Source: Spirochaetota bacterium (GTDB lineage Bacteria > Spirochaetota > UBA4802 > JAFGDQ01). From it: DNA of 37,919 bases. The stretch is taken from positions 1 to 37,919 of the forward strand of contig JAXHTB010000002.1 of assembly GCA_034190185.1 (NCBI GenBank), in the 5' to 3' direction. The position numbers and the translations under genes were made by a program. Under the pieces are notes generated by a model. It did not search any database. It worked only from the letters and a program-made list of their open reading frames with translations, and was not told where the DNA came from. This document shows positions 8,013-20,739 of the stretch, one piece after another; the first letter of the stretch is position 1; each line of letters opens with the position of its first letter.

Positions 8013-8253
8013 TCTATAAAGCAGGATGTATATTCTATTTTGAAGTACCATTCTAACCATCCCTTCTTAATAATGGTAAATTATATAAAAAATTGTATGC
8101 TTGATCAGCCTCCTCACAAAAAATTCGATTAAGACTTCAAAATTGTATTCTCTTTTTATCATTTCTTCAAATAACTTTAGTCGCAAAGGCACGGATTTTG
8201 TATAATCCATACCATCCCATACCATGAATTATTTAAAGATATAAAAGAGAGAC

Positions 8254-8282
8254 TTGACATAATAACAGTATTATTTTATACA
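8254..8282 (+). promoter_or_regulatory. Candidate sigma70-type promoter (TTGACA-N17-TATACA)
   Basis: Perfect -35 hexamer at 8254-8259, a 17-nt spacer and TATACA at 8277-8282, about 290 nt upstream of the first cluster gene. AT-rich DNA produces such matches by chance. Confidence 0.3.
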
Positions 8283-8358
8283 AAAACAGCATGTAATTAC
8301 AATACTGTATGATAGGAGATAGTAGCAATGAATGAACTGTTGCTATTATATTTTCTGT

Positions 8359-8380
8359 TAACTAGTTATTTTACTAGTAA
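8359..8380. promoter_or_regulatory. Two adjacent 10-bp perfect palindromes sharing an ACTAGT core (TAACTAGTTA, TTACTAGTAA)
   Basis: The palindromes are at 8359-8368 and 8371-8380, with centres 12 bp apart. They lie in the 555-nt gap between the LuxR-type regulator and the phosphonate cluster. Confidence 0.35.
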
Positions 8381-8567
8381 TGATTATAAAATTATTAAGT
8401 TTTATCATTATGGCACTATAACAATACCTAATTAAGACTATATTTTACATTTCTTTTTTGGTAATAATTCCCTTTAAATGGTTTAAAACTGTATCGATAT
8501 ATCGAATGTCGATTTTTTTAAGAACGCTATTTCTTGGTCATATTTTTTAGTTATAAGGTGATTCTTT

Positions 8568-9821
8568 ATGTTAGCATGGATAGACTGTACAGCGCTTAAC
8601 AACAAACACAAAATTTGGGGCATGACCATATTAGAAAGGATTATAAGGATACTTGCCTCTTCAAATATAACAAAGGTTTTTCTACCATTAGGTAAAAATG
8701 AAGAAAGCTTATGGTTTAGAAAAGATTTTAAAAGAAGTTTCCAAATAGATATTGAATTTACAGGCAATGAAAAAAGTATGTACGATTCTCTTAAGACTAT
8801 ATTCAAGGAAAATCCTAATGAACTTGTTATGCTGATTCAAGGAGAAGTTCTTTACGATCATAGAATAATTGAAAAACTTAAAAATCATACAAATCCGCTT
8901 GGAATTTATGACTCTGAAAGTGATATCTTTTCTGGCGCATTAGTGATAGACAAAACTGTTTTTGAAGAACTTCACATAAATCAGACTGATAACATTGAAA
9001 CAATCTATAAGAAATCTATATCCTTACAAATTATAGAATGGAATAATACAGAGTCTATGGATAAATATATTCTAAAACTAAGAGCCACACTTAAGCCATA
9101 TATGATCAGGTTGAAGAGTGAAAAAGATATAGATAAAGCAGAAAAATACCTTTATAATTCCGTATATAAGGGTGTTACAGATATAATGGTCAAGTATGTG
9201 TATAAATTTCCTGCGCGGATTATAACTTCAATGCTTTCAAAGACAACAATTACACCTAATAATGTAACATTTCTTAGCTCTTTATTTGCATTTATATCTA
9301 TACCATTATATGCTACAGGCTATATGGGATTTGGACTTCTTGTTTGCTATATTCATAGCTTGCTAGATGTTGTTGATGGGAAATTAGCTCGGCTTACCTA
9401 CAGGATAAGCAATACGGGAAATATTTTGGATCATGGTTCTGATTGGATTAGTCTTCCATTATGGGTTTCCGCAATAGGATGGCACCTATCAGATTCCTTA
9501 TTTTCCGGGGAGTTTTTTATTTATTCAATTTTATTTATCATTGCATATATTGTAAACAGGCTTGTCTTTTGGTTATTTTTAAGAGTACAAAAAAAACCCC
9601 TAGGTGATTTCAGGAAATTAGACCGTTATATCAGACTTTTCCCTGGCGCTAGAAAACAGGCCAGCCTTGTCATTCTTCTGATAGGCTATTTTCTTAATAT
9701 GAATGAACTGTTCTTCAAAATATTAGTTATTTTTACGATATTAAGCAGTATTTTTTATATTATTAGATTCCTTCAGTTTATGCCTCTGGCTCTTGAAAAT
9801 AGAAAACGGGAATTGATATAA
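8568..9821 (+). CDS. Membrane fusion protein: degenerate nucleotidyltransferase-like N-domain plus CDP-alcohol phosphotransferase domain (paralog 1)
   Basis: Complete D(x)2DG(x)2AR(x)8G(x)3D(x)3D motif: DVVDGKLARLTYRISNTGNILDHGSD (nt 9366-9443). There are multiple C-terminal TM helices. The N-terminal ~180 aa look like an NTP-transferase fold (IWGMTILERIIRIL..., IQGEVLYDHRII) but lack the GxGxR loop. AAGGTGA is the RBS. Confidence 0.85.
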   Translation: MLAWIDCTALNNKHKIWGMTILERIIRILASSNITKVFLPLGKNEESLWFRKDFKRSFQIDIEFTGNEKSMYDSLKTIFKENPNELVMLIQGEVLYDHRIIEKLKNHTNPLGIYDSESDIFSGALVIDKTVFEELHINQTDNIETIYKKSISLQIIEWNNTESMDKYILKLRATLKPYMIRLKSEKDIDKAEKYLYNSVYKGVTDIMVKYVYKFPARIITSMLSKTTITPNNVTFLSSLFAFISIPLYATGYMGFGLLVCYIHSLLDVVDGKLARLTYRISNTGNILDHGSDWISLPLWVSAIGWHLSDSLFSGEFFIYSILFIIAYIVNRLVFWLFLRVQKKPLGDFRKLDRYIRLFPGARKQASLVILLIGYFLNMNELFFKILVIFTILSSIFYIIRFLQFMPLALENRKRELI

Positions 9822-9830
9822 ATAATTAAG

Positions 9831-10898
9831 ATGACAATTAATACATTTATCAACAAACCGGATTCAGAGCCCTCATTTCTGCTTAATAAATTGATAGATA
9901 TGATTGAAGATATTCCGAAAGGAGAAACCCTTCATATTGCATTTTATTATCTAAGAAATATAAGGATGTGCAATGCACTTATTCAGGCTAAAGATAGAGG
10001 CGTTAAGATAAAAATTTTAATGTCTGGGAATACATATTACAAAACAGGGAATGTAGATTCAATAAAATTCTTGCGTAATAACGGATTTAATGAAAATGTA
10101 TTCAGGTTGCGGCATACTCCGAATATAATGAAAAGAAGAATGCATCTTAAACTGTTTTTGGCTTCGAAGTGCGGTAGTAGAAAATATATAAGCCTTTTCG
10201 GAACCTATAATCCTTCAGGAAATGATGAAAACGAAAAGGATGTATTTGATGTCATAGGCGATCAGGATAATGGTTATAATGTAATGATGGAAATAGAGGA
10301 AGATAAAGCAATTTATGATTATCTATTGAAATACTTTATTACACTTTTTGAAAAACCAGAAGGAAGATTTATGTATCCTTCAAAATCTTTCAGAGATATC
10401 TCTTTTTATCCAAGTCCATCCAAAAATAACAGATTCCTATCCTATATTAAGGATCTTGAACAAAATGTTGAAAATATTAAAAACCTTAGAATAAGAATAG
10501 CTGTATCGCATATCTCAGAGCGTGTAACAGTGAAAACGCTCTGTAAACTCGCAGTGATGGGTCACGATATTGAAATCATTGGTCATGACACAGAAAGAAG
10601 ATTTCCTAAAAAAGTGGAAAAGAGACTAAAAAAACATAGGGTCATGGTGATAAGATACATTCACCCTGAAGGATTCCCAATGCATTGTAAATTTATTTTA
10701 TCTGAGTATAATGATATAAATGGGAAAAGCTATTACGACTTATTTCTTGGGAGCATGAATCTTACTAATAAATCTTATTATCGAAACGATGAACTCCTTG
10801 CACTTTTTTCTAATCATACAATTTTTGAGGATTTCAGTAAATTGTATGAAGAATTGAGAGCTAACACATTAAAATATTTAGATAAAACTACTGTATAA
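9831..10898 (+). CDS. Phospholipase D superfamily protein with two HKD-like motifs
   Basis: LHIAFYYLRNIRMCNALIQAKDRGVKIKIL is a PLD-type N-terminal strand/helix. The first motif is MHLKLFLAS...GTYNPS. The second is MHCKFILSE...GSMNLTNKS. The Asp of HxK(x)4D is Ser in the first motif and Glu in the second. The gene starts 9 nt after paralog 1. Confidence 0.6.
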   Translation: MTINTFINKPDSEPSFLLNKLIDMIEDIPKGETLHIAFYYLRNIRMCNALIQAKDRGVKIKILMSGNTYYKTGNVDSIKFLRNNGFNENVFRLRHTPNIMKRRMHLKLFLASKCGSRKYISLFGTYNPSGNDENEKDVFDVIGDQDNGYNVMMEIEEDKAIYDYLLKYFITLFEKPEGRFMYPSKSFRDISFYPSPSKNNRFLSYIKDLEQNVENIKNLRIRIAVSHISERVTVKTLCKLAVMGHDIEIIGHDTERRFPKKVEKRLKKHRVMVIRYIHPEGFPMHCKFILSEYNDINGKSYYDLFLGSMNLTNKSYYRNDELLALFSNHTIFEDFSKLYEELRANTLKYLDKTTV

Positions 10899-10980
10899 TT
10901 CTTTTATTCATATCGCATAACATAATGGTAAGTTCAAATGAATTTATTTAACTAAATAATTTAGACATTATTTGTTATCT

Positions 10981-12258
10981 TTAACTTGTTAATGTATAAT
11001 CAAGATATTCTTTCTTTGAGAGAGGTAAGTAAATAAATCGGAAAAGATGGAAAAAAAATGTTATTATCTGCCAAAAAACAAAAATAAAAAAACCATAATC
11101 TGGACGGGAAAACACTAAACCGATAATCATAGTCATTAAAAAGGCATTCCTGCGCGCAATAAAGATTCTGACATAATAATCAAGTTTGGTATAATCATTT
11201 ATACTAGCATTATATAACTTTCTGAATAATTTGATCATTATACGATCAATAATATAGATTACAACCAGTAACCACGTAGATATAACAAAATAAGAATTAA
11301 AATTCAACATATTACCTTCTGCTAAACTCCAGCCAACACCAAGATACCATATTGGAAGATAAACTCTATCTGAGATATGATCCAGCCGACGTCCGGAGGT
11401 TGTTGTTCTCATTGTTAATCGAGCTAGTTTTCCATCAACTGAATCCAAAAAGCTCATAACTACTCCCATACAAATTGCGAGCCAATACCATCCAAGGAAA
11501 TAAAAAGGAATGGAGCCAAAAGCCAAAGAAATACTAAAAAGAGTGATTTGATTTGGAGTTAAGTAAGTTGGGCTTATTAAACCTACAAATATTCGAACAG
11601 GAATGGGATAAATATATTTTGTTACAAAATCAACTGCTCCCTTATATACAGAATTGAAGGAAATTAGTTTGGCTTTTTTTAATGACTGTTTATCCCTTAC
11701 TTCTAATAAATAGGGAACTAAATGCTTGCGTAGCTTTACAATATAACAGTCCATATCTTTTGTAAGGATTTTATCCAGACTAGGATTTTTGCTAAATAGA
11801 TCTTTTAAATCTTTATAATCCCTGGGATTATCGAAATCATAAACCTTTTTGCAAACACTAAAGATAAAGGGAGAGGATAAATTATCATTTTCTGTAACAT
11901 ATTTAAAATGATTTTTTTCTAACTCTTGTTGTAGATACTGGAGAATGCGGGAATCAAATACTGCATTTCCTTGTATTACTAAAAAATTGCTATCATCGTT
12001 TTTAAGAATAGAAGTTAATGTTTTAATTTCATTACTCTCTATTTGTTGAATTTTTATGTTTATAGTATTCCATTGTTTAAAATCTTTTCTTAAATTCGAT
12101 TTAATAATACTAAAGTCATTAGCTATTAGAATACATTCTTCGATGTTAATAGATGAAAGTTGTCTTAAAATCTTCTCATAAAGCGTCATGCCCCATAAAC
12201 GCAGAAGGGCTTCATCTTTATTAGCAAATATAATGGCTTTGGTTTTTTCTTTATTCAT
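10981..12258 (-). CDS. Membrane fusion protein: degenerate nucleotidyltransferase-like N-domain plus CDP-alcohol phosphotransferase domain (paralog 2)
   Basis: DSVDGKLARLTMRTTTSGRRLDHISD (nt 11368-11445) is a complete motif. The N-domain shows KAIIFANKDEALLRLWGMTLYEKILRQL and IQGNAVFDSRIL. The architecture matches 8568-9821 and 16484-17692. Confidence 0.85.
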   Translation of the reverse strand: MNKEKTKAIIFANKDEALLRLWGMTLYEKILRQLSSINIEECILIANDFSIIKSNLRKDFKQWNTINIKIQQIESNEIKTLTSILKNDDSNFLVIQGNAVFDSRILQYLQQELEKNHFKYVTENDNLSSPFIFSVCKKVYDFDNPRDYKDLKDLFSKNPSLDKILTKDMDCYIVKLRKHLVPYLLEVRDKQSLKKAKLISFNSVYKGAVDFVTKYIYPIPVRIFVGLISPTYLTPNQITLFSISLAFGSIPFYFLGWYWLAICMGVVMSFLDSVDGKLARLTMRTTTSGRRLDHISDRVYLPIWYLGVGWSLAEGNMLNFNSYFVISTWLLVVIYIIDRIMIKLFRKLYNASINDYTKLDYYVRIFIARRNAFLMTMIIGLVFSRPDYGFFIFVFWQIITFFFHLFRFIYLPLSKKEYLDYTLTS

Positions 12259-12533
12259 AATTAATTTATTTTTTTGTTATAATTCTTACTTATTGTAAGA
12301 TTTGTGTGTATTCATGTTAAAGATGCCCATAAAATATTAGTCACAACTGAAGATGTAAATACACTTTTTTTTATTCAAATGTTAGCTATATAAAACATAT
12401 TTCCACAATTGTTGTTGATAAATAGCAATAGTAATAAAAATATGTATTTTATAATACATACTCAGTCAGTATAGAAGAAATTATTTACTTACTGTAAGTA
12501 TAAAATAAATATTTGTAAATTATATAAATAGTC

Positions 12534-12551
12534 AACAATAAATTTATTGTT
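12534..12551. promoter_or_regulatory. Perfect 18-bp palindrome AACAATAAATTTATTGTT in the divergent promoter region of the phosphonate cluster
   Basis: Read directly from the sequence. It extends to a 24-nt near-palindrome (gtcaacaataaatttattgttaac). It lies ~110 nt upstream of the pepM-fusion ATG and ~275 nt upstream of the divergent paralog 2. Confidence 0.35.
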
Positions 12552-12663
12552 AACATTCATTCTCAATTTCAATTATATATATAATGATGGTGTTCCAACA
12601 TGAAATCGATTAAGTACTTAAACGTTTTGTTAATAATGAAGTATTATTAAAGGATGATAAATA

Positions 12664-13953
12664 ATGAAAAAAGTATATATAGCTATGAGTGCTGATTTAA
12701 TACATCCAGGACACCTTAATATAATTAAAGAAGGAAGCAAGTATGGTGAGGTTATTCTCGGATTGTTAACAGACAAGGCAATTGCGAGTTATAAAAGACT
12801 TCCATATATGACTTATGAACAGAGAGAAACTATTGTTGAAAACATAAAGGGTGTTTCAAAAGTTGTTCCTCAAGATTCCCTAGATTATGTCCCAAATCTT
12901 AAGAAAATTAAACCTGACTTTGTAGTACATGGTGATGACTGGAAAACAGGCATACAAAAAGAGACTAGGAGAAGGGTTATTGAAACTTTGAAAGAATGGG
13001 GGGGGAAATTAATTGAACCAAAGTACACTGAGGGAATTTCTTCAACTAAACTTAATGCTGTAATTCAAGAGATTGGAACAACACCAGGTATAAGGTTAAA
13101 AAGACTAAGAAGATTGTTATCTACTAAACAATTCGTCAGGATTTTAGAAGCTCATAATGGATTGACAGGATTAATTGTAGAAAAAACTCAAATTAATAAT
13201 AATCACATCGTAAAGGAATTTGACGGCATGTGGCTTAGCAGTTTAACTGACTCAACTGCCAAAGGGAAACCAGATATTGGATATGTTGATTTTACATCAC
13301 GGATGAATACAATAAATGATATTCTGGAGGTAACAACAAAACCAATTATATTTGATGGAGACTCTGGAGGATTGACTGAACATTTCAAGTTTATGGTAAG
13401 GTCTCTTGAAAGAGAAGGTGTATCTGCTGTAATAATTGAAGACAAAATTGGATTAAAGAAGAATTCACTATTAGGTATTGAAGCAAATCAGACACAGGAT
13501 AGTATAGAAAATTTTTCATTTAAAATTAGCGAGGGTAAAAAGGCTCAAATTACTGATGATTTTATGATTATCGCACGTATTGAGAGTTTAATCCTTAAGG
13601 CCGGTATGGATGATGCCCTAAAAAGAGCCAGAGAGTTCATTTCTGCAGGTGCAGATGGAATAATGATACATAGTTGCGAGAAAAAACCTGATGAAATTCT
13701 TGAATTCTGTGAAGAGTATAGAAAAATTGAAAACAGAATGCCCTTGGTTGTAGTGCCTAGTACATATAATATGATTACTGAAGAAGAGCTGGCTGAAGCA
13801 GGGGTTAGAATTGTTATATATGCCAATCAATTATTAAGAAGCGCTTATCCGGCTATGGTTAAAACAGCCAAGTCGATTTTAGAAAATGAAAGAGCATTAG
13901 AATGTGATGATTTCTGTACGCCTGTTAAGGATATATTAACATTGATTTCATAG
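12664..13953 (+). CDS. pepM: Bifunctional cytidylyltransferase / phosphoenolpyruvate phosphomutase (Fom1-like architecture)
   Basis: The N-terminal ~130 aa carry the HxGH cytidylyltransferase signature ([12 protein letters not shown]) and [10 protein letters not shown] (RTxGISTT-type). The C-terminal domain carries the PepM-diagnostic EDKxxxxxNS motif ([13 protein letters not shown]) and an isocitrate-lyase/PEP-mutase fold ([17 protein letters not shown]). Confidence 0.92.
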
Positions 13954-14051
13954 AGCATTAAATCTGTTACTGTACTCGCTATTGATCATCAAAAAACAAG
14001 AAGTATGACTAAAATTTATTGAATACGCAGAGTAGGGGGTAATCCCAAAGT

Positions 14052-14087
14052 CATTCCGGCAGATGCAGGAATGATAGTATATGATTG
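14052..14087. repeat. REP-like stem-loop element, copy A (ATTCC-N10-GGAAT hairpin plus ATGATAGTATATGATTG tail)
   Basis: cattccggcagatgcaggaatg is followed by atagtatatgattg. A related copy is at 20029-20072. This copy lies in the 226-nt gap between pepM and ppd. Confidence 0.5.
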
Positions 14088-14179
14088 TTGTTTACCCTAC
14101 AATTTAGACTATGCTCAAATTATCTAAGAGAAATATTTCTTAATTTTAAATAACATATAATTTCTTATAAAAGAAAAAA

Positions 14180-15274
14180 ATGAAACCAGATATATTTATT
14201 AACATTTTAAAAGATCACGATTTTGCCCATTTTATGGGGGTTCCATGCTCAGTATTTACAAATCTAATAAATTATCTTGAGGATTGTGAGGATATAAAAA
14301 ATTATACGGCATCCTCTGAGGGTGAAGCTATGGGATTGGCTGCTGGATTCTCATTATGCGGGAAAGTTCCTGTGATTTATATGCAAAATGATGGATATGG
14401 AAATATTATTAATCCATTATCATCCCTGCAACTTTTATATAAATTGCCTGCATTATTGCTGATATCTTGGCGCGGGGAACCAGGTAAAAAGGATGCTCCG
14501 CAACATACTGTAATGGGCAATACAATCTTGCAGCTTCTGGATATATTTAATATCCCAAAAATTATTCTTGATGAAGATCTTGAGAAAGTTAAACTATATA
14601 TAAGTGAAGTAAAACAGCATTTTAAACATAATAGAACTCCTTTTGCCTTTATTATAAAAAAGGGGTATTTTGAAAATTATGAAAAAAAATTATCCCCTTC
14701 ACCTATAAACCAACATTTCAGAATCGAATTTATCGATCTACTTTCAGATTATATTGATGAAAGGGATGTATTGCTTGGAGCTACAGGTTTCTCTGGACGA
14801 GAGCTTTACCAGAGTGTAAATCATAATGGAAAATTCTACATGATGGGTTCTATGGGGTGCTTGGCCAGTATTGGGATGGCAATTGCAGAGGAAAAAAGAG
14901 ATAGAAGAATATTTGTATTTGATGGTGATGGAGCAATTTTAATGAAAATGGGAACACTTGCCACAGTTGGATATTATAAGCCGAATAACCTGATTCATAT
15001 ATGCTTTGATAATGAAACATACGAATCAACTGGTGGTCAGAAAACGACATCTCAAACAGTCGATTACATAAAAGTTTCAAAAGCATGCGGCTACAGATCA
15101 GCAGTATATATTGAACGTATTGAAGAATTTAAAGAACTTTTAATAAATATTAAAGAATATGACAAACCGCTTTTCGTACAGATAAAAGTTAAACCAGGAA
15201 CCGTTGAGAACCTTACAAGACCCGCTGATTCTCCAGAAGATATGAAAAATAAAATTATGGAATTTTTAAAATAA
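14180..15274 (+). CDS. ppd: Phosphonopyruvate decarboxylase (ThDP-dependent)
   Basis: 364-aa single-chain Ppd-type layout. The ThDP motif is FVFDGDGAILMKMGTLATVG...ICFDNETYESTGGQ. The N-terminal PYR-domain shows GVPCS...EGEAMGLAAG. It lies immediately downstream of pepM. Confidence 0.9.
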   Translation: MKPDIFINILKDHDFAHFMGVPCSVFTNLINYLEDCEDIKNYTASSEGEAMGLAAGFSLCGKVPVIYMQNDGYGNIINPLSSLQLLYKLPALLLISWRGEPGKKDAPQHTVMGNTILQLLDIFNIPKIILDEDLEKVKLYISEVKQHFKHNRTPFAFIIKKGYFENYEKKLSPSPINQHFRIEFIDLLSDYIDERDVLLGATGFSGRELYQSVNHNGKFYMMGSMGCLASIGMAIAEEKRDRRIFVFDGDGAILMKMGTLATVGYYKPNNLIHICFDNETYESTGGQKTTSQTVDYIKVSKACGYRSAVYIERIEEFKELLINIKEYDKPLFVQIKVKPGTVENLTRPADSPEDMKNKIMEFLK

Positions 15275-16374
15275 TGTGGAAATATTCTAATCCTGTTAAG
15301 ATTATTTTTTCTGAACGTTTAACAGAAGGAATAATTCCGATTATTAGAGATAAAAATAAAATATTAATTATATGTTCTCAGCGGTTTACAAAAACAGAAG
15401 ATTACAATAATTTGACAAAGGGTCAAGATCGATATACTATTTTTATGGATATTGAAAATAATCCATCCTTTAGCAGTTGCCAAAAGGCAATAAACCATGT
15501 TAAAGACCTTAAACCTGATACAATCATAGCTATTGGCGGAGGATCGGTTTTAGATACTGCAAAAGCAGCAAGAATGGCATATTATAAATCATGCTATGAC
15601 ATTGAGAAATTATTCAATAATGAAAATATTCCTGTTACTAAACCTCTTTTTATTGCCATTCCTACAAATCACGGAACAAGCAGTGAACTTACTATGTGGG
15701 CAACTATATGGGATAAGAAAAATAATAAAAAGTATTCTTTATCTGAATTTGATAATTATCCTGATTACGCAATTTATGATGTTAATTTAATAAATTCTTT
15801 GCCAGTAGTAGAATCTTTAACCTCTGTCCTTGATGCTTTATCTCACTCTTTTGAGTCCTTGTGGAATAAAAATTCGAATCCAATCTCTGATCTTTTTGCA
15901 ATAGAAGCAATAAAATTGATTATTCAAAATATTTCCAAATTAAATAATCAGACGACAATAGATGTTAGGAAAAACCTTTTAACTGCATCGATCTATGCAG
16001 GCTTGGCGTTTTCCAATACTAAAACTGCCGCAGCTCACTCAATTAGTTATCCTTTGTCATTGTATTTCAATATCCCACATGGAATTGCATGTTCAATGCC
16101 TCTTTTCCCTCTGCTTAAAATAAATCAAAACACAATACAATACAAGATAGACAATTTGCTTAATATTTTGCGTCTTAATAATATTGAAGAATTATGGAGG
16201 GATGTTCTTAATTCAGTTATAAGTAAAATTCCTTTTACACTTCAAGAATTTGGAGTAAAAAAGAGCGATATTAACTGGCTCGTTGATATGTCTTTTACTA
16301 AAGATAGAATGGCTAACAATATAGTTAATTTAAATAAAAACGATGTCTATAATATATTAAAAGATATATATTAA
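15274..16374 (+). CDS. Iron-containing (group III) alcohol dehydrogenase, predicted phosphonoacetaldehyde reductase (PhpC/FomC/DhpG class)
   Basis: IIAIGGGSVLDTAKAA is the nucleotide loop. AAHSISYPLSLYFNIPHGIAC carries the metal-binding histidines. The ATG overlaps the ppd stop (TAATG), which implies translational coupling. Confidence 0.8.
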   Translation: MWKYSNPVKIIFSERLTEGIIPIIRDKNKILIICSQRFTKTEDYNNLTKGQDRYTIFMDIENNPSFSSCQKAINHVKDLKPDTIIAIGGGSVLDTAKAARMAYYKSCYDIEKLFNNENIPVTKPLFIAIPTNHGTSSELTMWATIWDKKNNKKYSLSEFDNYPDYAIYDVNLINSLPVVESLTSVLDALSHSFESLWNKNSNPISDLFAIEAIKLIIQNISKLNNQTTIDVRKNLLTASIYAGLAFSNTKTAAAHSISYPLSLYFNIPHGIACSMPLFPLLKINQNTIQYKIDNLLNILRLNNIEELWRDVLNSVISKIPFTLQEFGVKKSDINWLVDMSFTKDRMANNIVNLNKNDVYNILKDIY

Positions 16375-16483
16375 CCTTCACTCATAAGAAAATGCTTGAT
16401 CATTTCCTATTCTCCTGCAGATGATAATCTAATAGATATTTACCTTACATATCTATATAATTCATATAAAAAAAGGGAAGCAA

Positions 16484-17692
16484 ATGAATATTATTATCTT
16501 TGCATTAAATTTAAAGACTGAATTCAAATTATGGAACTTAACAACACTTGAAAGGCTGTTATTCACTTTGAATTCTGAAGAAAAAAGAGACATTACAATC
16601 ATATTAAATTCGTCATTTAATTTACCAAAAATAGTAGAGAAAAATAGGAATACAAAGATTACAATAAAACAAATTAATAGTATAAATGATGAAGAATTTT
16701 CTAAAGTGCTCGATCAAATTGATTCATCTGTGATTTTATTAAATGGAAATTACGTTTATGATCCTAGATGCCTTAGGAAAATTCTAAATTCAAAAACTGA
16801 TGTAATGTTGTACGATCCAAACAATGAAAATGCATTTGGAGTAAAATTATATCCTGATAATTTAAGATTATTGCAAAAGAACAAAATCAATGATTATAAT
16901 GATCTTTATAATTTTATAAAAGATAATACAAAGATAAAGCAATTATCAGTAAATGATATTCCTGCAAGAATCGATAGTATCAAAAAAGATATTGTCCCCT
17001 TTATTATCAGGTTGGAAAATAAACGAAATAATAAAAATGCAGAAAAAATCATATTTAATATGCAGTACAAGGGTGTTATGGATATTATATATATGTATCT
17101 TTACAGACCTGTTGTGGAAATATGCGTCAAATTCTTAAGTAAATTGGGAGTACATCCTAATTCAGTTAGTATAATAAATATATTTATTGGGATATTGGCT
17201 ATCCCCCTTTTCCTTACAGGGCATTTTTTATATGCACTGATCTTAACCCTGATTACAATGATTATGGATGCAATCGACGGACCTCTGGCAAGATTAACCT
17301 TTAAAACCAGCAAATTGGGACATTATCTTGATAAAATAACGCATATGGTACTTCATATTTCATGGCTCTTGTCAATCGGATTTGCATTAAGTCGACTTCA
17401 TGGAAACTATATCCCCATATTCATTTCATTGACAATAATTGCAATGTTTTTTATTTTTCGAGGAATTCGAAGTTCATTTAGACGAAAATTTCACAGAAGT
17501 ATTTATGATTTGTCCCGTTTCGATATTATTTTTAGAAGCATCTCCGGAAATAGATGGAATATAAATATGATTTTTTTATTTAGTGGAATAATAACAGGTG
17601 ATTTTCTTATGTCATTGTATATGATCACTATCTGGAATGGATTTTGTTTATTATTCTATGCAACGAGATTTATTTTTTATAAAGTAGGATAA
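16484..17692 (+). CDS. Membrane fusion protein: degenerate nucleotidyltransferase-like N-domain plus variant CDP-alcohol phosphotransferase domain (paralog 3)
   Basis: In DAIDGPLARLTFKTSKLGHYLDKITH (nt 17267-17344) the last Asp of the family motif is His. The N-domain shows LWNLTTLERLLFTL and LNGNYVYDPRCL. The stop overlaps the flippase ATG (TAATG). Confidence 0.8.
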   Translation: MNIIIFALNLKTEFKLWNLTTLERLLFTLNSEEKRDITIILNSSFNLPKIVEKNRNTKITIKQINSINDEEFSKVLDQIDSSVILLNGNYVYDPRCLRKILNSKTDVMLYDPNNENAFGVKLYPDNLRLLQKNKINDYNDLYNFIKDNTKIKQLSVNDIPARIDSIKKDIVPFIIRLENKRNNKNAEKIIFNMQYKGVMDIIYMYLYRPVVEICVKFLSKLGVHPNSVSIINIFIGILAIPLFLTGHFLYALILTLITMIMDAIDGPLARLTFKTSKLGHYLDKITHMVLHISWLLSIGFALSRLHGNYIPIFISLTIIAMFFIFRGIRSSFRRKFHRSIYDLSRFDIIFRSISGNRWNINMIFLFSGIITGDFLMSLYMITIWNGFCLLFYATRFIFYKVG

Positions 17693-19158
17693 TGGAAGAT
17701 AAGCCACAAACGACAAAAGAAATAAAACGCAAAGCTAAGAAGGGCTTCCTCCAATATGGATCTGCTAAGATTTTTTCAAAAATCTTGAATTCTGTAAGCT
17801 TTGTTATAGCTGCGGCATATATGAATACAGCAGAGATTGGTGTAGCTTCTTTGGTAAAGTCAATAATACTACTGATCCTTGCTCTTATTGAGTCTGGATT
17901 TCCTGATGCGCTTGTTCAATCAATTAGTCTTACTAAAAAACAGTCATCATCTTCTTTCTGGTTCTTAACATTTTGGGCACTATTCCTTTTTTTTATTATA
18001 GCTGTTGTCTCACCTTTAATTGAGCAATTCTTTAAAATGGATGGCCTGGCTGTTTTTATTCTTGGAGCATCTCTTCAACTCATATTTATTTCAATTGCAC
18101 TTGTTCCGGGACGTCATTTGGAGCGCAAATTGGATTTTGGTTATATTGGAATTATAGACACAATTGGCATAATAGGTTCCTCAATTACTAAAATTACACT
18201 GGCAGTACTGGGCGCAGGGGCATGGGCGCTTATTCTTGGCCCGGTGACAAATTCATTTATTAAGTGTATTATGACATTCTGGATAACACGCTATCTTCCA
18301 TCTCTTTATTTTTCATGGACATCTATAAAAGGACTTCTGAATTTTGGGTATAAAAGGGTAGTTTCTAATTTTATATATCGTTTCTATAAAAATGCGGATT
18401 ATTTAATTATTGGCATGTTCTTAGGCGAGACATTCTTAGGTGTTTATCGGGTTGCCTTTGAGTTATCTGTTGCGCCAGCATTGACTGTATCACACTTCTT
18501 TAATAAGGTTTCATTTTCTGCCTTTTCAAGACTTCAAAATTCAAGAGATAAGTTAAAATCATATTTCCTGGACATAAACCGTTCATTAGCAATGATTGTA
18601 GGCCCGATTTCTGTTTTCTTATTTGTAACTGCCGAAGACCTTCTTAGAATGTGTTTTGGTGAGAGGTATATTGACGCTACTATTGCTATAAAACTCCTAT
18701 GTATCATGGGATTTATTCGTTCTTTGAGTCAGCTTATCCCAAAGGTAATAAATGCTATCGGCAGGGCAGATATAACTCTATGGAACTCTATTATTACGCT
18801 GATTATATTAACCAGCGCCATTTTTACCGCTGTTGTAGGATGGAAAGATACCATGGGTATGATCCCAATTTGCCTGGCATGGCTTATAAGTTATCCTATT
18901 CTATGGCTAATTGTACTGATTATTGCTAAAATGCAGATTGATTTATCTTTCAAATCTTACTTTTGGAATTTGACGCCCTCACTTTTGGGATTAATTCTAA
19001 TGGGTTTATCTATGGAAGGCATGAAATATATAGGGAGAACAACAATACCGGCTGTAAATGTTGTTTTACCTACAGTTGTTGGACTAGGATTTTATCTTTT
19101 TTATATTACAAAAATCATGAAAGTTGATTTAATGAAAATTTTCCCAAAAAAAATGTGA
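17692..19158 (+). CDS. MOP-superfamily (Wzx-like) polysaccharide/lipid-linked-intermediate flippase
   Basis: 488 aa with about 12-14 hydrophobic helices. The N-terminal basic segment followed by G.L.YGSAKI.SKILN is typical of Polysacc_synt-type proteins. It is translationally coupled to paralog 3. Confidence 0.75.
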   Translation: MEDKPQTTKEIKRKAKKGFLQYGSAKIFSKILNSVSFVIAAAYMNTAEIGVASLVKSIILLILALIESGFPDALVQSISLTKKQSSSSFWFLTFWALFLFFIIAVVSPLIEQFFKMDGLAVFILGASLQLIFISIALVPGRHLERKLDFGYIGIIDTIGIIGSSITKITLAVLGAGAWALILGPVTNSFIKCIMTFWITRYLPSLYFSWTSIKGLLNFGYKRVVSNFIYRFYKNADYLIIGMFLGETFLGVYRVAFELSVAPALTVSHFFNKVSFSAFSRLQNSRDKLKSYFLDINRSLAMIVGPISVFLFVTAEDLLRMCFGERYIDATIAIKLLCIMGFIRSLSQLIPKVINAIGRADITLWNSIITLIILTSAIFTAVVGWKDTMGMIPICLAWLISYPILWLIVLIIAKMQIDLSFKSYFWNLTPSLLGLILMGLSMEGMKYIGRTTIPAVNVVLPTVVGLGFYLFYITKIMKVDLMKIFPKKM

Positions 19159-19393
19159 GTGCTATCGAAATTTACGAGTGATCAGGAATAAAAACACCCC
19201 CTATGTGGAGTGTGAATTATATGTAAGAATGCTCAAAATCTTATACAATATCTTTATTTTAAGCGACATAATCCGATTAATAATAAAAAAAGTATTGAAA
19301 TACAAATAGTTCTATTTTTCGCAAGGATTATTACGAGATTAAACTAATAAACATTAAGAAAAACAATTCAAAACTTTTGATCCTAATCCTTCA

Positions 19394-19942
19394 ATGAAGG
19401 ATGCTTTATGATTACTTGAAGAAGCAAATATATCAAAATTTTCTTTAATTGGGAAACTGGCTATGTGGGTATACCTGTAAGATGATGACCAACACCAATA
19501 TACTAAAGATGTTGATTTTGCGATATTACTAAATGACTGCGAAAAGCTTGAAAAAATTGTATTAAAAAAAGGTATACCATTTAAATATTTACAAATTGGA
19601 GGCATCGGCATTAGAAAGGAAGGTATAAATATTGATTTTATCGACCGACGCTAACATGGCGTACAGTCTTTATTTCCTGATGCTATTACTAATTTCTATA
19701 CTGAGGTTGAAGTAGACCAATATTCCATTCCAGTAGTATCGTTAGAATATCTGATTGCAATAAAAATTGTATCTGGAGAACCAAAAGATTATGATTTAAA
19801 GATATTACTAGCTTTATGGGATTTTAGCTACGAAAAGGCAAGGAAGATTGTAGAGAAGCATCTTGGAGTAATTACAACTGAACGACTTGATGTTTTTGCA
19901 AGGGATGCAGGATTACTTCCCCAAAGAGGTTCATACATATAA
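19394..19942 (+). pseudogene. Decayed nucleotidyltransferase-fold gene (single frame interrupted by three stop codons)
   Basis: Frame-2 reading gives MKDAL*LLEEANISKFSLIGKLAMWVYL*DDDQHQYTKDVDFAILLNDCEKLEKIVLKKGIPFKYLQIGGIGIRKEGINIDFIDRR*HGVQSLFPDAITNFYTEVEVDQYSIPVVSLEYLIAIKIVSGEPKDYDLKILL... The stops are at ~19409 (TGA), 19478 (TAA) and 19652 (TAA). The T.DVDF and IDFI pattern is typical of minimal nucleotidyltransferases. Confidence 0.45.
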
Positions 19943-20028
19943 ATATAGTGAATAATTTTGAAAAGCAATTCTTATATCATTCGAGAGTGGTCAAAAATTG
20001 CAGGTAGATTCAATAATCAGATTCTCTT

Positions 20029-20072: not shown

Positions 20073-20197
20073 CCTTTATCTGCCGAAATGACCTAGTGTG
20101 AATGACAACCTGAAATCTGACTTTATGCTATAGAGCTTATATTTACTTATTTTATCTGGAAAAGTCTTGACAAGAAAAGAGTCCTCTATTTCACTTT

Positions 20198-20218
20198 AAA
20201 TGAAAATTATTTCTATTT
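20198..20218. promoter_or_regulatory. Fur-box-like operator upstream of the Fur-family gene
   Basis: In aaaTGAAAATTATTTCTAttt, the core matches TGATAATNATTATCA at 11 of 14 defined positions. It ends 15 nt before the ATG at 20233. Confidence 0.55.
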
Positions 20219-20232
20219 AGTTTATTTTTTTC

Positions 20233-20649: not shown

Positions 20650-20665
20650 AATTTTTTTTAATAAT

Positions 20666-20686: not shown

Positions 20687-20739
20687 ACAAAAAATCAAAA
20701 TAAACTCAAACCTAACAACTCAATTTACATGTTAGTTTA

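What the first reader, a model, noticed from the sequence alone, without database searches (positions are those of the whole stretch)
8568..19158. Fom1/Fom2/FomC-like 2-hydroxyethylphosphonate module wired to three CDP-alcohol-phosphotransferase fusion paralogs, a PLD-type protein and a Wzx flippase: candidate HEP-phosphonolipid or phosphonoglycan system
Seen in the sequence. (i) 12664-13953 is an HxGH cytidylyltransferase domain fused to a PEP mutase carrying the diagnostic EDKxxxxxNS motif. (ii) 14180-15274 is a ThDP phosphonopyruvate decarboxylase. (iii) 15274-16374 is an Fe-ADH whose ATG overlaps the ppd stop. (iv) No aminotransferase gene is in the cluster. (v) Three paralogous membrane proteins carry the CDP-alcohol phosphotransferase motif. 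(vi) There is a two-HKD PLD-family protein and a MOP flippase translationally coupled to paralog 3. Established knowledge. PepM plus Ppd give phosphonoacetaldehyde, and Fe-ADHs of the PhpC/FomC/DhpG class reduce it to 2-hydroxyethylphosphonate (HEP). The cytidylyltransferase domain of Streptomyces Fom1 converts HEP to CMP-HEP. Nucleotidyl (CMP) activation is the common route for attaching phosphonates to bacterial glycans and lipids. CMP-aminoethylphosphonate is used by CDP-alcohol-type phosphotransferases to build phosphonolipids in eukaryotes. The PLD and CDP-alcohol families are the two classic phospholipid head-group transferase families. Inference. CMP-HEP mimics a CDP-alcohol and would be the donor for one or more of the three transferases, with diacylglycerol, a polyol or a glycan as acceptor. 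This would give HEP-bearing lipids or glycoconjugates that the flippase exports. The absence of Fom3/Fom4-type genes argues against fosfomycin-type chemistry. HEP-decorated exopolysaccharide has been reported, but I know of no HEP head-group lipid or triple-transferase arrangement like this. An alternative is soluble phosphonodiester solutes, by analogy with the IPCT-DIPPS fusion enzymes.
Basis: partly seen in the sequence, partly recalled or inferred. Interest (0 to 1): 0.85.

Follow-up and report, generated by a model that had tools for sequence, protein, structure and literature searches.

The report
Hydroxyethylphosphonate pathway wired to CpgA-like transferases
This gene cluster very probably makes an activated carbon-phosphorus compound (CMP-2-hydroxyethylphosphonate) and passes it to three membrane transferases related to an enzyme that builds anionic lipid head groups, so it likely puts a phosphonate on a cell-envelope lipid or lipid-linked carrier; no product of this kind has been characterised.

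Summary
Homology strongly supports the front end. PepM and Ppd score above curated equivalog cut-offs. The cytidylyltransferase domain is 64% identical to the solved CyTase domain in PDB 5x3d. The CyTase-PepM/Ppd/Fe-ADH cassette is widespread.

Four points are new:
- **Architecture.** The three paralogs have an IPCT-DIPPS/AF2299-like build, with a degenerate, signature-less nucleotidyltransferase domain fused to the CDP-alcohol phosphotransferase.
- **Family.** They belong to a large family whose proteobacterial members sit in Caulobacter-type sphingolipid loci at the position of CpgA. These members are normally paired with a CpgD-like cytidylyltransferase. The window has none, and the HEP cassette takes its place.
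- **Paralog 3.** It belongs to a small subfamily in which the fourth signature Asp is a conserved His. With the window, three of the four subfamily loci examined lie beside pepM.
- **Other loci.** Independent multi-paralog HEP loci exist (L023, L093, L096).

Lipid versus glycan acceptor remains open, and I lean towards lipid. The PLD-like protein's role is unknown. Verdict: a new variant of known nucleotide-activated phosphonate tailoring. Interest 0.62.

The parts
8568..9821 (+). CAP1: 417-aa membrane protein. It has an N-terminal degenerate nucleotidyltransferase-like cytosolic domain and a C-terminal CDP-alcohol phosphotransferase with the full signature (DVVDGKLAR...G...D...D).
   Evidence: PF01066 scores 40.2 bits against a cut-off of 22. 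Its closest relative in the comparison set is CAP2, at 35%.
9831..10898 (+). Soluble PLD-superfamily protein with two HxK motifs (HLKLFLAS, HCKFILSE), starting 9 bp after CAP1. Its role is unresolved; it may be an accessory phosphodiester transferase or hydrolase.
   Evidence: PF13091 scores 75.2 bits in two stretches; sequence. Full-length homologues at 28-29% lie beside NT+CAP in Myxococcota L027 and inside a sphingolipid-type locus L017. There is no PDB sequence match, and the AF2 model is unusable.
10981..12258 (-). CAP2: 425-aa paralog with the full CDP-alcohol phosphotransferase signature, transcribed divergently from the pepM operon.
   Evidence: PF01066 at 52.1 bits, plus a weak NTP_transf_3 hit. 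AF2 model pLDDT is 90.8. Foldseek top hits are IPCT-DIPPS 4mnd and AF2299 4o6m, and RmlA-type nucleotidyltransferases also match at lower rank (TMq about 0.36). The closest homologues, at 44-52%, lie next to a CpgD-like NT.
12259..12663 (.). A 405-bp AT-rich intergenic region between the divergent CAP2 gene and the pepM operon. That it is a shared promoter region is an inference.
   Evidence: Sequence. The promoter-like scan is not above the shuffled expectation, and there is no Rfam match.
12664..13953 (+). Bifunctional Fom1-type protein: an HxGH cytidylyltransferase domain (residues 1-137) fused to PEP mutase (residues 148-429, [10 protein letters not shown]).
   Evidence: The CyTase domain is 64% identical to PDB 5x3d (E 8e-60). 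More than 8000 homologues exist, the best 120 listed being 73-80% identical.
14180..15274 (+). Phosphonopyruvate decarboxylase (ThDP-dependent).
   Evidence: TIGR03297 scores 383.3 bits against a cut-off of 312.5. It is syntenic with pepM in 36 of 42 related loci of at least 8 kb.
15274..16374 (+). Fe-dependent alcohol dehydrogenase, the predicted phosphonoacetaldehyde reductase that gives 2-hydroxyethylphosphonate.
   Evidence: The best NCBIfam family is TIGR03405 Phn_Fe-ADH at 253.5 bits, below its cut-off of 423.7; the next family scores 168.5. Its position after Ppd is conserved in 36 of 42 loci, with up to 67% identity. TAATG overlap with ppd.
16484..17692 (+). CAP3: 402-aa divergent paralog from a distinct subfamily in which the fourth signature Asp is a conserved His (D..DG.LARLTF.TS.LGH.LDK..H).
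   Evidence: PF01066 at 46.5 bits. The word-based search found only the query itself. Exhaustive HMMER found a subfamily, P0242-P0247, at 27-33% identity; the His is invariant in it. Subfamily members lie directly upstream of pepM in L093 and L096.
17692..19158 (+). MOP/Wzx-family flippase, translationally coupled to CAP3.
   Evidence: PF13440 at 202.6 bits; NF007773 at 196.8 bits, below its cut-off of 273. TAATG overlap. It is 38% identical to the Wzx in the NT-CAP-CAP-GT-Wzx locus L001.

Best explanation
The region 8568-19158 is a phosphonate tailoring system for the cell envelope.

1. PepM, Ppd and the Fe-ADH convert PEP to 2-hydroxyethylphosphonate (HEP). This step rests on strong homology.
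2. The Fom1-type cytidylyltransferase domain fused to PepM converts HEP and CTP to CMP-HEP. This also rests on strong homology.
3. The membrane CDP-alcohol-type phosphotransferases take CMP-HEP as a CDP-alcohol mimic. At the cytoplasmic face of the inner membrane they transfer the hydroxyethylphosphonyl group to a hydroxyl acceptor and release CMP. This is inferred from comparative genomics. The case is strongest for CAP3 and weaker for CAP1 and CAP2.
4. The acceptor is most likely the head group of a membrane lipid or a lipid-linked carrier. The analogy is Caulobacter CpgD/CpgA, in which CDP-glycerate is proposed to be used to add a second phosphoglycerate to ceramide phosphoglycerate.
5. HEP keeps a free hydroxyl, so the paralogs may act one after another on each other's products.
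6. The Wzx-type flippase then moves the product to the outer face.
7. The N-terminal domains of the three paralogs are nucleotidyltransferase folds that have lost the NTP-binding signature. They are not expected to make the donor.
8. The PLD-like protein paired with CAP1 is an accessory of unknown role.
For: **Donor pathway.**
- PepM and Ppd score above the equivalog cut-offs.
- The CyTase domain is 64% identical to the 5x3d CyTase domain.
- The ADH's best family is TIGR03405.
- The CyTase-PepM/Ppd/ADH cassette is conserved in 36 of 42 related loci.
- No AEP transaminase, Fom3/Fom4-like gene, LicD, TagF-like protein, sulfatase-family transferase, glycosyltransferase or second nucleotidyltransferase was found in the window.

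**Transferases.**
- The fold matches IPCT-DIPPS and AF2299.
- The N-domain is homologous to the CpgD-like NT (hhalign 97.7%), but the GxGxR...PK loop is deleted.
- The family has at least 596 genomic relatives. About 50 of the 80 loci fetched hold a CpgD-like NT nearby (my count; scan).
- The proteobacterial neighbourhoods reproduce the Caulobacter CC_1152-CC_1168 sphingolipid locus (PMC11324152; PMC12275187; PMC9393093).
- CC_1159/CpgA is described as PF01066 with an N-terminal cytoplasmic domain.

**Link between the two.**
- CAP3 and wzx are in the pepM operon.
- L023, L093 and L096 each combine PepM, Ppd, a cytidylyltransferase and CAP-family genes; the Fe-ADH is seen in L023 and L093, and the L096 contig ends within Ppd.
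- The His-variant subfamily of CAP3 lies next to pepM in three of the four loci examined, counting the window.
- The short CDP-OH protein after the ADH in the closest cassette relative, L098, also has D...H.

**Lipid leaning.**
- The CAP-PLD pair recurs in a sphingolipid-type locus (L017) and in an NT-CAP-PLD operon (L027).
- The Leptospirales relative L013 sits among acyl-ACP thioesterase and acyl ligase genes.
- The window contains no GT, Wzy or Wzz.
Against: - There is no biochemical evidence for any step here.
- The ADH scores below the curated cut-off of TIGR03405.
- CAP1 and CAP2 belong to the FCB-type clade, not to the pepM-associated clades of L023, L093 and L096. Their donor could be a CDP-alcohol made elsewhere in the genome.
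- CAP3 lacks the Asp usually regarded as the catalytic base, so it could be inactive or have altered chemistry.
- None of 42 loci of at least 8 kb that carry the same Fom1-type cassette has a long CAP. There the cassette pairs with LicD (15), TagF-like (at least 9) or short CDP-OH (7) proteins in glycan-type contexts. This favours glycans as the general destination of CMP-HEP.
- Wzx proteins classically flip undecaprenyl-linked glycans.
- L093 and L096 contain glycosyltransferases.
- That the proteobacterial family members are CpgA orthologues rests on neighbourhood and on the published domain description, not on a direct sequence comparison.
Confidence: 0.5

Rival explanations
1. Phosphonoglycan or teichoic-acid-like decoration. 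The CAPs transfer HEP from CMP-HEP onto an undecaprenyl-linked oligosaccharide or glycopolymer whose backbone genes lie elsewhere. The Wzx flips the HEP-decorated unit for polymerisation or ligation.
For: - A Wzx flippase is coupled to CAP3.
- The usual neighbours of the same cassette are LicD, TagF-like, Wzy, Wzz and GT genes.
- L093 and L096 contain GT1, SIS and NT genes and L093 also PMT_2, all around the CAPs.
- L001 has NT-CAP-CAP-GT4-Wzx.
- HEP-bearing exopolysaccharide is the only structurally known HEP conjugate of this type (PMC8942020).
Against: - The 37.9-kb window has no glycosyltransferase, initiating phosphoglycosyltransferase, Wzy or Wzz.
- The only genetically studied relative (CpgA) acts on a lipid head group.
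- The family's commonest neighbourhood is lipid (sphingolipid) biosynthesis.
Confidence: 0.27
2. The juxtaposition is only partly functional. CAP3 uses CMP-HEP, while CAP1, CAP2 and the PLD-like protein form a separate head-group module that uses a different CDP-alcohol made by a nucleotidyltransferase encoded elsewhere.
For: - CAP1 and CAP2 are each other's closest relatives and belong to the FCB-type clade, whose members always sit beside a CpgD-like NT.
- CAP1-PLD and CAP2 are separate transcription units from the pepM operon.
- Only CAP3's subfamily shows a specific pepM association.
Against: - No other nucleotidyltransferase is present in the window.
- CAP2 shares a divergent intergenic region with pepM.
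- GC is below that of the upstream flank across the whole 8.5-19.2 kb block, though it stays low for about 2 kb downstream.
- The Wzx is related to the one in the FCB-type module L001 yet is coupled to CAP3, so the modules are interleaved.
Confidence: 0.15
3. Soluble phosphonodiester solutes. By analogy with IPCT-DIPPS, the CAPs condense CMP-HEP with a small soluble alcohol, or with HEP itself, to give compatible-solute-like diesters.
For: The architecture and fold are closest to IPCT-DIPPS. DIPPS is membrane-embedded yet makes a soluble product (established knowledge).
Against: - A flippase would have no role.
- The characterised relative (CpgA) and most neighbourhoods point to membrane lipids.
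- The NT domain is degenerate, unlike IPCT.
Confidence: 0.05

Closest known systems
Caulobacter crescentus CpgD/CpgA step of ceramide diphosphoglycerate (CPG2) synthesis (CCNA_01210 / CCNA_01217 = CC_1152 / CC_1159)
   Same: - A dedicated cytidylyltransferase makes a CMP-linked small hydroxy-acid donor (CDP-glycerate).
- A PF01066 membrane protein with an N-terminal cytoplasmic domain is required to add it to the hydroxyl of an existing lipid head group (PMC12275187, PMC9393093).
- The window's CAPs belong to the protein family found at that position in Caulobacter-type loci.
- The donor keeps a free OH, so units can be added in tandem.
   Different: - The donor is a phosphonate (CMP-HEP) made by a Fom1-type HxGH CyTase, not by a COG1213 enzyme.
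- The window has no spt, ceramide synthase, ceramide kinase, CpgC, LptF2/G2 or metallophosphoesterase genes next to the CAPs.
- There are three paralogs instead of one, and one of them has His for the fourth Asp.
- The flippase is Wzx-type rather than ABC-type.
- CpgA's own activity has not been shown in vitro.
Streptomyces Fom1 / Fom2 / FomC (early fosfomycin steps)
   Same: - A bifunctional CyTase-PepM, with the CyTase domain 64% identical to PDB 5x3d.
- Ppd.
- An Fe-ADH that gives HEP.
- Cytidylylation of HEP to CMP-HEP (PMC6697681, citing Cho et al. 2017).
   Different: No Fom3 (radical SAM methyltransferase) or Fom4 (epoxidase) is present. CMP-HEP is here a transfer donor, not a transient intermediate of a diffusible antibiotic.
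Group 1 phosphonolipid / 'Burkholderiales_CDP-OH' pepM neighbourhoods (Yu et al. 2013; Li & Horsman 2022, PMC8942020)
   Same: PepM-Ppd, cytidylyltransferase(s) fused to or next to PepM, and phospholipid-type genes that give the group its 'CDP-OH' name. The predicted product, a phosphonolipid, is uncharacterised.
   Different: Those clusters encode AEP transaminase and an Fe(II)/2-oxoglutarate oxygenase (1-hydroxy-AEP) and use PntC-type (PF12804) enzymes. The window makes HEP, has neither gene, and uses CpgA-like long CAPs in three copies.
Archaeoglobus fulgidus IPCT-DIPPS (PDB 4mnd) and AF2299 (PDB 4o6m)
   Same: The overall architecture is a cytosolic nucleotidyltransferase-fold domain followed by a six-helix CDP-alcohol phosphotransferase domain. 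These are the best Foldseek and sequence matches.
   Different: The NT-fold domain of the CAPs lacks the GxGxR...K nucleotide-binding signature. Sequence identity is only about 15-17%. No inositol-phosphate synthase is present.
LicC/LicD-type and PntC-type phosphonyl tailoring of glycans (Rice et al. 2019, PMC6697681)
   Same: The logic is the same: cytidylyl activation of a phosphonate followed by transfer to a cell-surface molecule.
   Different: The transferase family differs, being CDP-alcohol phosphotransferase instead of LicD. The phosphonate is HEP instead of AEP.

Membership tests
PEP mutase (TIGR02320 / PF13714) | Profile score above the equivalog cut-off, plus the EDKxxxxxNS motif | tested here: met
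   392 bits against 319.55. [10 protein letters not shown] is in the translation.
Fom1-type HEP cytidylyltransferase domain (PF01467) | HxGH motif, N-terminal fusion to PepM, and close similarity to the characterised Fom1 CyTase domain | tested here: met
   HPGH. PF01467 at 58.4 bits. 64% identity over 134 residues to PDB 5x3d. That 5x3d is the Fom1 CyTase domain comes from my memory of Cho et al. 2017; the PDB name given is 'Phosphoenolpyruvate phosphomutase', a 160-aa chain.
Fom1-type HEP cytidylyltransferase domain (PF01467) | Preference for HEP over AEP or other phosph(on)ates | not testable with these tools
   This needs an enzyme assay. Indirect support: there is no AEP transaminase in the window, and an Fe-ADH is present in 36 of 42 related loci.
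Phosphonopyruvate decarboxylase (TIGR03297) | Profile score above the equivalog cut-off | tested here: met
   383.3 bits against 312.5.
Phosphonoacetaldehyde reductase (PhpC/FomC/DhpG class; TIGR03405 Phn_Fe-ADH) | Profile score above the curated cut-off | tested here: not met
   253.5 bits against a cut-off of 423.7. It is nevertheless the best family, with the next at 168.5 bits.
Phosphonoacetaldehyde reductase (PhpC/FomC/DhpG class; TIGR03405 Phn_Fe-ADH) | Conserved position immediately after ppd in pepM clusters that lack a transaminase | tested here: met
   36 of 42 loci of at least 8 kb; L009-L011, L023 and L093. A phylogeny against PhpC/FomC/DhpG was not possible because no reference sequences were at hand.
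CDP-alcohol phosphotransferase (PF01066) | Signature D-x2-D-G-x2-A-R-x8-G-x3-D-x3-D | tested here: met
   CAP1 has DVVDGKLARLTYRISNTGNILDHGSD and CAP2 has DSVDGKLARLTMRTTTSGRRLDHISD.
CDP-alcohol phosphotransferase (PF01066), CAP3 | Fourth Asp of the signature (proposed catalytic base) | tested here: not met
   CAP3 has DAIDGPLARLTFKTSKLGHYLDKITH. The His is invariant in the subfamily P0242-P0247. The Pfam score is still above the gathering threshold, 46.5 against 22.
Bifunctional IPCT-DIPPS | Catalytically competent N-terminal cytidylyltransferase (GxGxR loop and catalytic Lys) | tested here: not met
   The loop is absent from all 28 aligned family members. hhalign against the partner NT family shows a 12-residue deletion exactly over SAGqGsRLlPLT..PK. 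NF041135 scores 37-47 bits against a cut-off of 580.
Bifunctional IPCT-DIPPS | Overall fold: NT-fold domain plus a six-helix transmembrane CDP-AP domain | tested here: met
   AF2 pLDDT 90.8. Foldseek hit 4mnd at E 1.5e-14 and 4o6m at E 5e-11.
CpgA-type lipid head-group phosphotransferase (Caulobacter CC_1159) | Same protein family as the PF01066 gene of CPG2 loci | tested here: inconclusive
   Family members sit in loci with Spt, bCerS-like, CerR-like, ceramide-kinase-like, LptF/G, CpgD-like NT and metallophosphoesterase genes. CC_1159 is described as PF01066 with an N-terminal cytoplasmic domain. The CC_1159 sequence itself was not available for direct comparison.
CpgA-type lipid head-group phosphotransferase (Caulobacter CC_1159) | Adjacent CpgD-like (COG1213) cytidylyltransferase and sphingolipid genes | tested here: not met
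   None is present in the window. The HEP cassette occupies the donor role instead.
PLD superfamily (HKD) | Two HxK(x)4D motifs | tested here: inconclusive
   PF13091 scores 75.2 bits in two stretches. H and K are present twice, but the Asp is replaced by Ser or Glu.
MOP / Wzx flippase | Polysacc_synt_3 profile above the gathering score | tested here: met
   202.6 bits against 23. The NCBIfam MOP flippase model scores 196.8, below its cut-off of 273.
Fosfomycin biosynthetic cluster | Fom3 radical-SAM methyltransferase and Fom4 epoxidase | tested here: not met
   No such domains were found in any window ORF of at least 80 aa.
'Burkholderiales_CDP-OH' Group 1 phosphonolipid cluster | AEP transaminase plus Fe(II)/2-oxoglutarate oxygenase in the seven-gene core | tested here: not met
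   Both are absent. The core is described in PMC8942020.

The most novel reading that the evidence does not exclude
The three paralogs, possibly working as hetero-oligomers of canonical and His-variant subunits, add hydroxyethylphosphonyl units one after another. Each uses the free hydroxyl of the previous HEP as acceptor. The product would be a lipid-anchored oligo- or poly(2-hydroxyethylphosphonate), a C-P-bonded anionic head group or teichoic-acid-like chain. The Wzx flippase would export it. It would resemble CPG2 and poly(glycerol phosphate) but carry C-P bonds that phosphomonoesterases cannot cleave. The conserved Asp-to-His change in the CAP3 subfamily would then mark a transferase adapted to a phosphonate donor, or to an anionic acceptor that needs no general base.
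Probability: 0.15. Interest if true: 0.85.

Novelty: new variant of a known kind. Interest (0 to 1): 0.62.

Why it matters
About half of microbial pepM clusters are thought to decorate cell surfaces, yet almost none of the transferases or products downstream of CMP-phosphonates are known. This locus gives a compact, GT-free test case in which one donor pathway (HEP to CMP-HEP) feeds a defined set of three related membrane transferases and a flippase.

It also connects two fields that have not been joined: phosphonate tailoring (Pnt) and the CpgD/CpgA system, which makes the anionic sphingolipid CPG2 that supports Caulobacter viability without lipid A. CpgA's activity is still unassayed, and the family is very widespread, with at least 596 genomic relatives in the species-representative genomes.

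If confirmed, the locus would define the first HEP-bearing lipid or lipid-linked carrier. It would also identify a pepM-associated CDP-alcohol phosphotransferase subfamily with a non-canonical catalytic signature, and supply a sequence marker (D..DG.LARLTFQTS.LGH.LDK.SH) for mining such systems.

Tried and rejected
- **Word-based homologue search for CAP3.** It found only the query. The exhaustive HMMER search was needed.
- **Metagenome scans for the CAP3 subfamily.** The alignment scan matched 163 pattern stretches, but none was a relative.
- **Structure of the PLD-like protein.** The single-sequence AF2 model had pLDDT 41.7 and was unusable, so no fold search was run. There was no PDB sequence match. 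PADLOC gave only weak DrmC/DpdK-like hits, which I take as generic PLD-nuclease similarity, not evidence for a defence role.
- **Source organism.** It could not be identified. Cluster look-ups return no names, and the best genomic relative of CAP2 is a Leptospirales MAG at 38%.
- **Promoter and terminator scans.** Results were not above the shuffled background. There were no Rfam families or tRNAs. Repeats around the cluster gave no mobile-element boundaries; the 45-nt inverted repeat I1 is simply the CAP1/CAP2 paralogy.
- **Hidden AEP transaminase.** I considered whether the downstream Aminotran_5 domain (29116-32505) was one. It is a NifS-type cysteine desulfurase.
- **Active nucleotidyltransferase in the CAP N-domains.** This is rejected, because the nucleotide-binding loop is deleted.
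- **ADH phylogeny against PhpC/FomC/DhpG.** Not possible, as no reference sequences were available.

Full report
**1. Observation**

- 12664-13953 encodes an HxGH cytidylyltransferase domain fused to a PEP mutase. TIGR02320 scores 392 bits, above its cut-off. HPGH and [10 protein letters not shown] are visible in the translation.
- 14180-15274 is a phosphonopyruvate decarboxylase. TIGR03297 scores 383 bits, above its cut-off.
- 15274-16374 is an Fe-ADH whose ATG overlaps the ppd stop as TAATG.
- 8568-9821, 10981-12258 (minus strand) and 16484-17692 are paralogs, 25-37% identical. Each has a roughly 200-residue N-terminal domain and a C-terminal PF01066 domain.
- 9831-10898 is a soluble protein with two PLDc_2 stretches.
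- 17692-19158 is a MOP/Wzx protein whose ATG overlaps the stop of paralog 3.

Two corrections are needed. Paralog 3 (CAP3) has His where the CDP-alcohol phosphotransferase signature has its fourth Asp. The two 'HKD' motifs of the PLD-like protein keep H and K but not D.

No AEP transaminase exists anywhere in the window. The only Aminotran_5 domain, in 29116-32505, is a NifS/IscS-type cysteine desulfurase.

**2. The donor pathway**

The cytidylyltransferase domain (residues 4-137) is 64% identical, at E 8e-60, to PDB chain 5x3d_A. That chain is a 160-residue fragment deposited as 'phosphoenolpyruvate phosphomutase'. I recall it as the CyTase domain of Streptomyces wedmorensis Fom1, the enzyme shown to convert HEP and CTP to CMP-HEP (Cho et al. 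2017, cited in PMC6697681).

The fusion protein is extremely common and conserved. More than 8000 homologues were found, the best 120 listed at 73-80% identity, from WOR-3, Aminicenantes, Ignavibacteria and other lineages.

Among 80 metagenome loci carrying a 65-77% identical fusion, Ppd and an Fe-ADH follow directly wherever the contig is long enough. In the 42 loci of at least 8 kb, 36 have Ppd and 36 have the ADH.

The ADH's best NCBIfam family is the phosphonate-associated Fe-ADH TIGR03405. It scores 253.5 bits, with the next family at 168.5, but this is below the curated cut-off of 423.7. Its assignment as phosphonoacetaldehyde reductase therefore rests on best-family ranking plus conserved synteny, not on equivalog membership.

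The window has no Fom3/Fom4-type genes, no LicD, TagF-like or sulfatase-family transferase, no glycosyltransferase and no second nucleotidyltransferase.

I consider PEP to HEP to CMP-HEP well supported by homology.

**3. What the three paralogs are**

*Sequence and fold.* Sequence searches against solved structures return AF2299 (4o6m) and IPCT-DIPPS (4mnd). An AlphaFold model of CAP2, built on a 28-sequence alignment, is confident (pLDDT 90.8). Its best Foldseek matches are IPCT-DIPPS and AF2299. RmlA-type nucleotidyltransferases also match at lower rank, covering only part of the model (TMq about 0.36).

*The N-terminal domain.* The glycine-rich GxGxR loop and the catalytic Lys of nucleotidyltransferases are missing in all family members aligned. 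A profile-profile comparison with the nucleotidyltransferase family that is usually encoded next door gives 97.7% probability of homology. It also shows a 12-residue deletion exactly over that loop. So these proteins are IPCT-DIPPS-like in architecture, but the NT-fold domain is degenerate and should not make the donor.

*Size and neighbourhood of the family.* CAP2 has 344 word-based hits. At least 596 relatives occur in the species-representative genome collection. About 50 of the 80 loci fetched hold a roughly 250-aa NTP_transf_3/COG1213-like nucleotidyltransferase nearby (my count; examples).

Clustering the neighbours of 86 loci gave this recurring set:
- LptF/G-like permeases, in 36 loci
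- two nucleotidyltransferases
- a metallophosphoesterase
- a GNAT-like protein
- an MsbA-like ABC protein
- an epimerase-fold reductase
- a class I/II aminotransferase of serine-palmitoyltransferase type
- an acyl ligase
- a DAGK_cat kinase

This is the gene set of the Caulobacter crescentus sphingolipid/CPG2 region CC_1152-CC_1168 (PMC11324152).

*The Caulobacter system.* CpgD (CCNA_01210/CC_1152) has been shown in vitro to make CDP-glycerate. CpgA (CCNA_01217/CC_1159) is genetically required to add the second phosphoglycerate to ceramide phosphoglycerate (PMC12275187; PMC9393093). CpgA is a PF01066 protein with an N-terminal cytoplasmic domain. Its authors note that higher polymers cannot be excluded.

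I could not obtain the CC_1159 sequence. The statement that the proteobacterial family members are CpgA orthologues is therefore an inference from neighbourhood and domain description.

**4. The link between the two halves**

Several independent observations tie the HEP pathway to this transferase family.

- *Operon structure.* CAP3 and wzx are in the pepM operon. CAP2 is transcribed divergently from it across 405 bp.
- *Missing nucleotidyltransferase.* The window lacks the cytidylyltransferase that otherwise accompanies the family. The only nucleotide-activating enzyme present is the Fom1-type domain.
- *Relatives of CAP2 and the flippase.* CAP2's closest relatives (44-52%) sit in NT-CAP or NT-CAP-CAP-GT-Wzx modules. 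The window's Wzx is 38% identical to the one in such a module, L001. The window thus looks like that module with the nucleotidyltransferase exchanged for the HEP cassette.
- *Other loci.* Three further loci combine a PepM pathway with CAP-family genes, using a non-orthologous PntC-type (PF12804) cytidylyltransferase:
  - L023 (Bacteroidota MAG): MT, GT1, PepM::PntC, CAP, Ppd, NT, Fe-ADH.
  - L093: four full-length CAPs and one short CDP-OH protein around PepM::PntC, Ppd, NT, Fe-ADH and Wzx, plus part of a further PF01066 gene cut by the locus end.
  - L096: CAP, CAP, PepM::PntC, Ppd, then the contig ends, so no ADH is seen.
- *The CAP3 subfamily.* CAP3 found nothing but itself in the word-based search. 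Exhaustive HMMER found a small subfamily, P0242-P0247, at 27-33% identity. In it the motif D..DG.LARLTFQTS.LGH.LDK.SH, with His at the fourth-Asp position, is invariant. Of the three members whose context I could fetch, two lie directly upstream of PepM::PntC. The third is on a short contig that ends after an NT::methyltransferase fusion and a cut ORF. With the window, three of four loci are pepM-linked. By comparison, only 1 of 80 loci of the family at large has pepM.
- *A short form with the same variant.* In L098, the closest relative of the window's cassette (ADH 67%), the gene after the ADH is a short 297-aa CDP-OH protein that also has D...H.

**5. Paralog clades**

In the pepM-linked loci the CAPs fall into three groups:
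- a canonical clade: L093_8757, L096_8769, L023_10001
- the His clade, which contains CAP3
- a clade with G2 changed to A and D4 changed to S: L093_4260, L093_19393, L046_9977, L094_1223

CAP1 and CAP2 are canonical. They are each other's closest relatives and belong to the FCB-type clade.

The specific evidence for a phosphonate donor is therefore strongest for CAP3. For CAP1 and CAP2 it rests on adjacency and on the missing nucleotidyltransferase.

What the H and S variants mean is unexplained. They could reflect a different catalytic base, an anionic acceptor that needs no base, or non-catalytic partners in the dimers typical of this family.

**6. Acceptor: lipid or glycan?**

*For a lipid or lipid head group:*
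- The only genetically studied relative acts on a lipid head group.
- The commonest neighbourhood of the family is sphingolipid biosynthesis.
- The CAP-then-PLD gene pair of the window recurs as NT-CAP-PLD in Myxococcota L027 and inside a sphingolipid-type locus, L017.
- The Leptospirales relative L013 lies among acyl-ACP thioesterase and acyl ligase genes.
- A putative Kennedy-type NT plus CDP-OH head-group pathway has been proposed in Bacteroidetes (PMC9246714).
- The window has no glycosyltransferase, Wzy or Wzz.

*For a glycan:*
- The flippase is Wzx-type.
- In the 42 loci of at least 8 kb, the same Fom1-type cassette is wired to LicD (15 loci), TagF-like proteins (at least 9) and short CDP-OH proteins (7), in Wzy/Wzz/GT contexts. 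None has a long CAP.
- L093 and L096 contain GTs and sugar-nucleotide genes.

I lean towards a lipid or lipid-linked carrier, but hold this loosely.

**7. Comparison with what is known, and novelty**

The general logic is established or already predicted: cytidylyl activation of a phosphonate, followed by transfer to a surface molecule. PF01467 is fused to 23.6% of Ppm enzymes (PMC6697681). HEP is inferred in 8.5% of ppm neighbourhoods. A large AEP-based 'Burkholderiales_CDP-OH' group is predicted to make still-uncharacterised phosphonolipids (PMC8942020).

The window is not a member of that group, because it has no AEPT and no oxygenase. It is not a fosfomycin cluster either.

My searches of the held literature found no HEP-bearing lipid and no description of CpgA-like proteins in pepM clusters. 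The library is limited to open-access papers.

I therefore class this as a new variant of a known kind. It is a HEP/CMP-HEP donor module coupled to multiple CpgA/IPCT-DIPPS-like transferases. These include a pepM-associated subfamily with a non-canonical signature.

That recurrence makes the functional link more credible.

**8. Limits**

- Nothing here is biochemical.
- The source organism is unknown. It is a low-GC diderm with chemotaxis genes, TonB-dependent receptor and porin genes.
- The PLD-like protein could not be modelled.
- The ADH is below its family cut-off.
- CpgA orthology is inferred.
- The pepM association of the His subfamily rests on four loci.

Noticed in passing
window 29116-33617 (+): A 1129-aa fusion joins a PhsA/formate-dehydrogenase-like molybdopterin oxidoreductase (residues 8-712) to a NifS/IscS-type cysteine desulfurase (residues 748-1123). 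It is followed directly by an EgtD L-histidine N-alpha-methyltransferase (TIGR03438, 317 bits, above cut-off). This could be an unusual ergothioneine- or selenoneine-type sulfur/selenium transfer route.
   Followed up: partly
window 25108-26433 (-): A 441-aa outer-membrane protein whose best family is the ExtI porin of the selenite/tellurite reduction operon (127 bits, below its cut-off of 150). It lies a few kb upstream of the molybdopterin-NifS/EgtD pair.
   Followed up: no
window 20197-20219 and 20665-20687: A 23-nt inverted repeat, 96% complementary (TAAATGAAAATTATTTCTATTTA), flanks the fur gene (20233-20649). It looks like Fur-box-type operators before fur and before the next gene, which is followed by a TonB-dependent receptor. 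The fur gene lies 1 kb downstream of the cluster. In Caulobacter, loss of fur and the presence of CPG2 together allow life without lipid A (PMC9393093), so the adjacency may be coincidental.
   Followed up: no
window 7344-8012 (+): A NarL/LuxR-type response regulator sits on the same strand 555 bp upstream of CAP1, with CheR and a 1043-aa PAS/HAMP_2-rich MCP further upstream on the other strand. Whether the regulator controls the cluster is unknown. The overlapping ORF 7220-7801 (-) has no family match and is probably spurious.
   Followed up: no
window 13954-14179: A 226-bp gap lies between pepM and ppd and contains a small hairpin (CATTCC GGCAGATGCA GGAATG). In related loci the two genes abut.
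   Followed up: no
window 8000-20000: GC content of the cluster is 26-36%, compared with 38-44% in most of the upstream 2-7 kb and 34-41% from 21 kb onwards. This is compatible with horizontal acquisition or with the low GC typical of surface-structure loci. No mobile-element boundaries were found.
   Followed up: partly
L093 4260-5492 and 19393-20622; L046 9977-11197; L094 1223-2488: This clade of CAP paralogs has a degenerate signature (D..DGKLAR.T.R.S..AD..D..TS: G2 changed to A, D4 changed to S). They are encoded alongside other CAP paralogs of the canonical or His-variant type, which suggests pseudoenzyme partners or altered chemistry.
   Followed up: partly
L098 13736-14629: In the closest relative of the window's HEP cassette, a short 297-aa CDP-OH phosphotransferase lies directly after the ADH. 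It also has His at the fourth-Asp position and is followed by a TagF-like protein. Wzy and Wzz genes lie upstream.
   Followed up: partly
L013 11213-11659; L083 6078-6455; L090 9245-9622: Some CAP-family loci carry a stand-alone TagD-like HxGH cytidylyltransferase (PF01467) next to the CAP gene, instead of the CpgD-like enzyme. The family has therefore been paired with both cytidylyltransferase folds outside phosphonate contexts.
   Followed up: partly
L012 10001-13149: A CyTase-PepM gene 78% identical to the window's has no Ppd or ADH within the 10 kb fetched on either side. It is followed by an LPG_synthase_TM protein and a short 228-aa CDP-OH phosphotransferase. This is a different wiring of the same fusion protein.
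   Followed up: no
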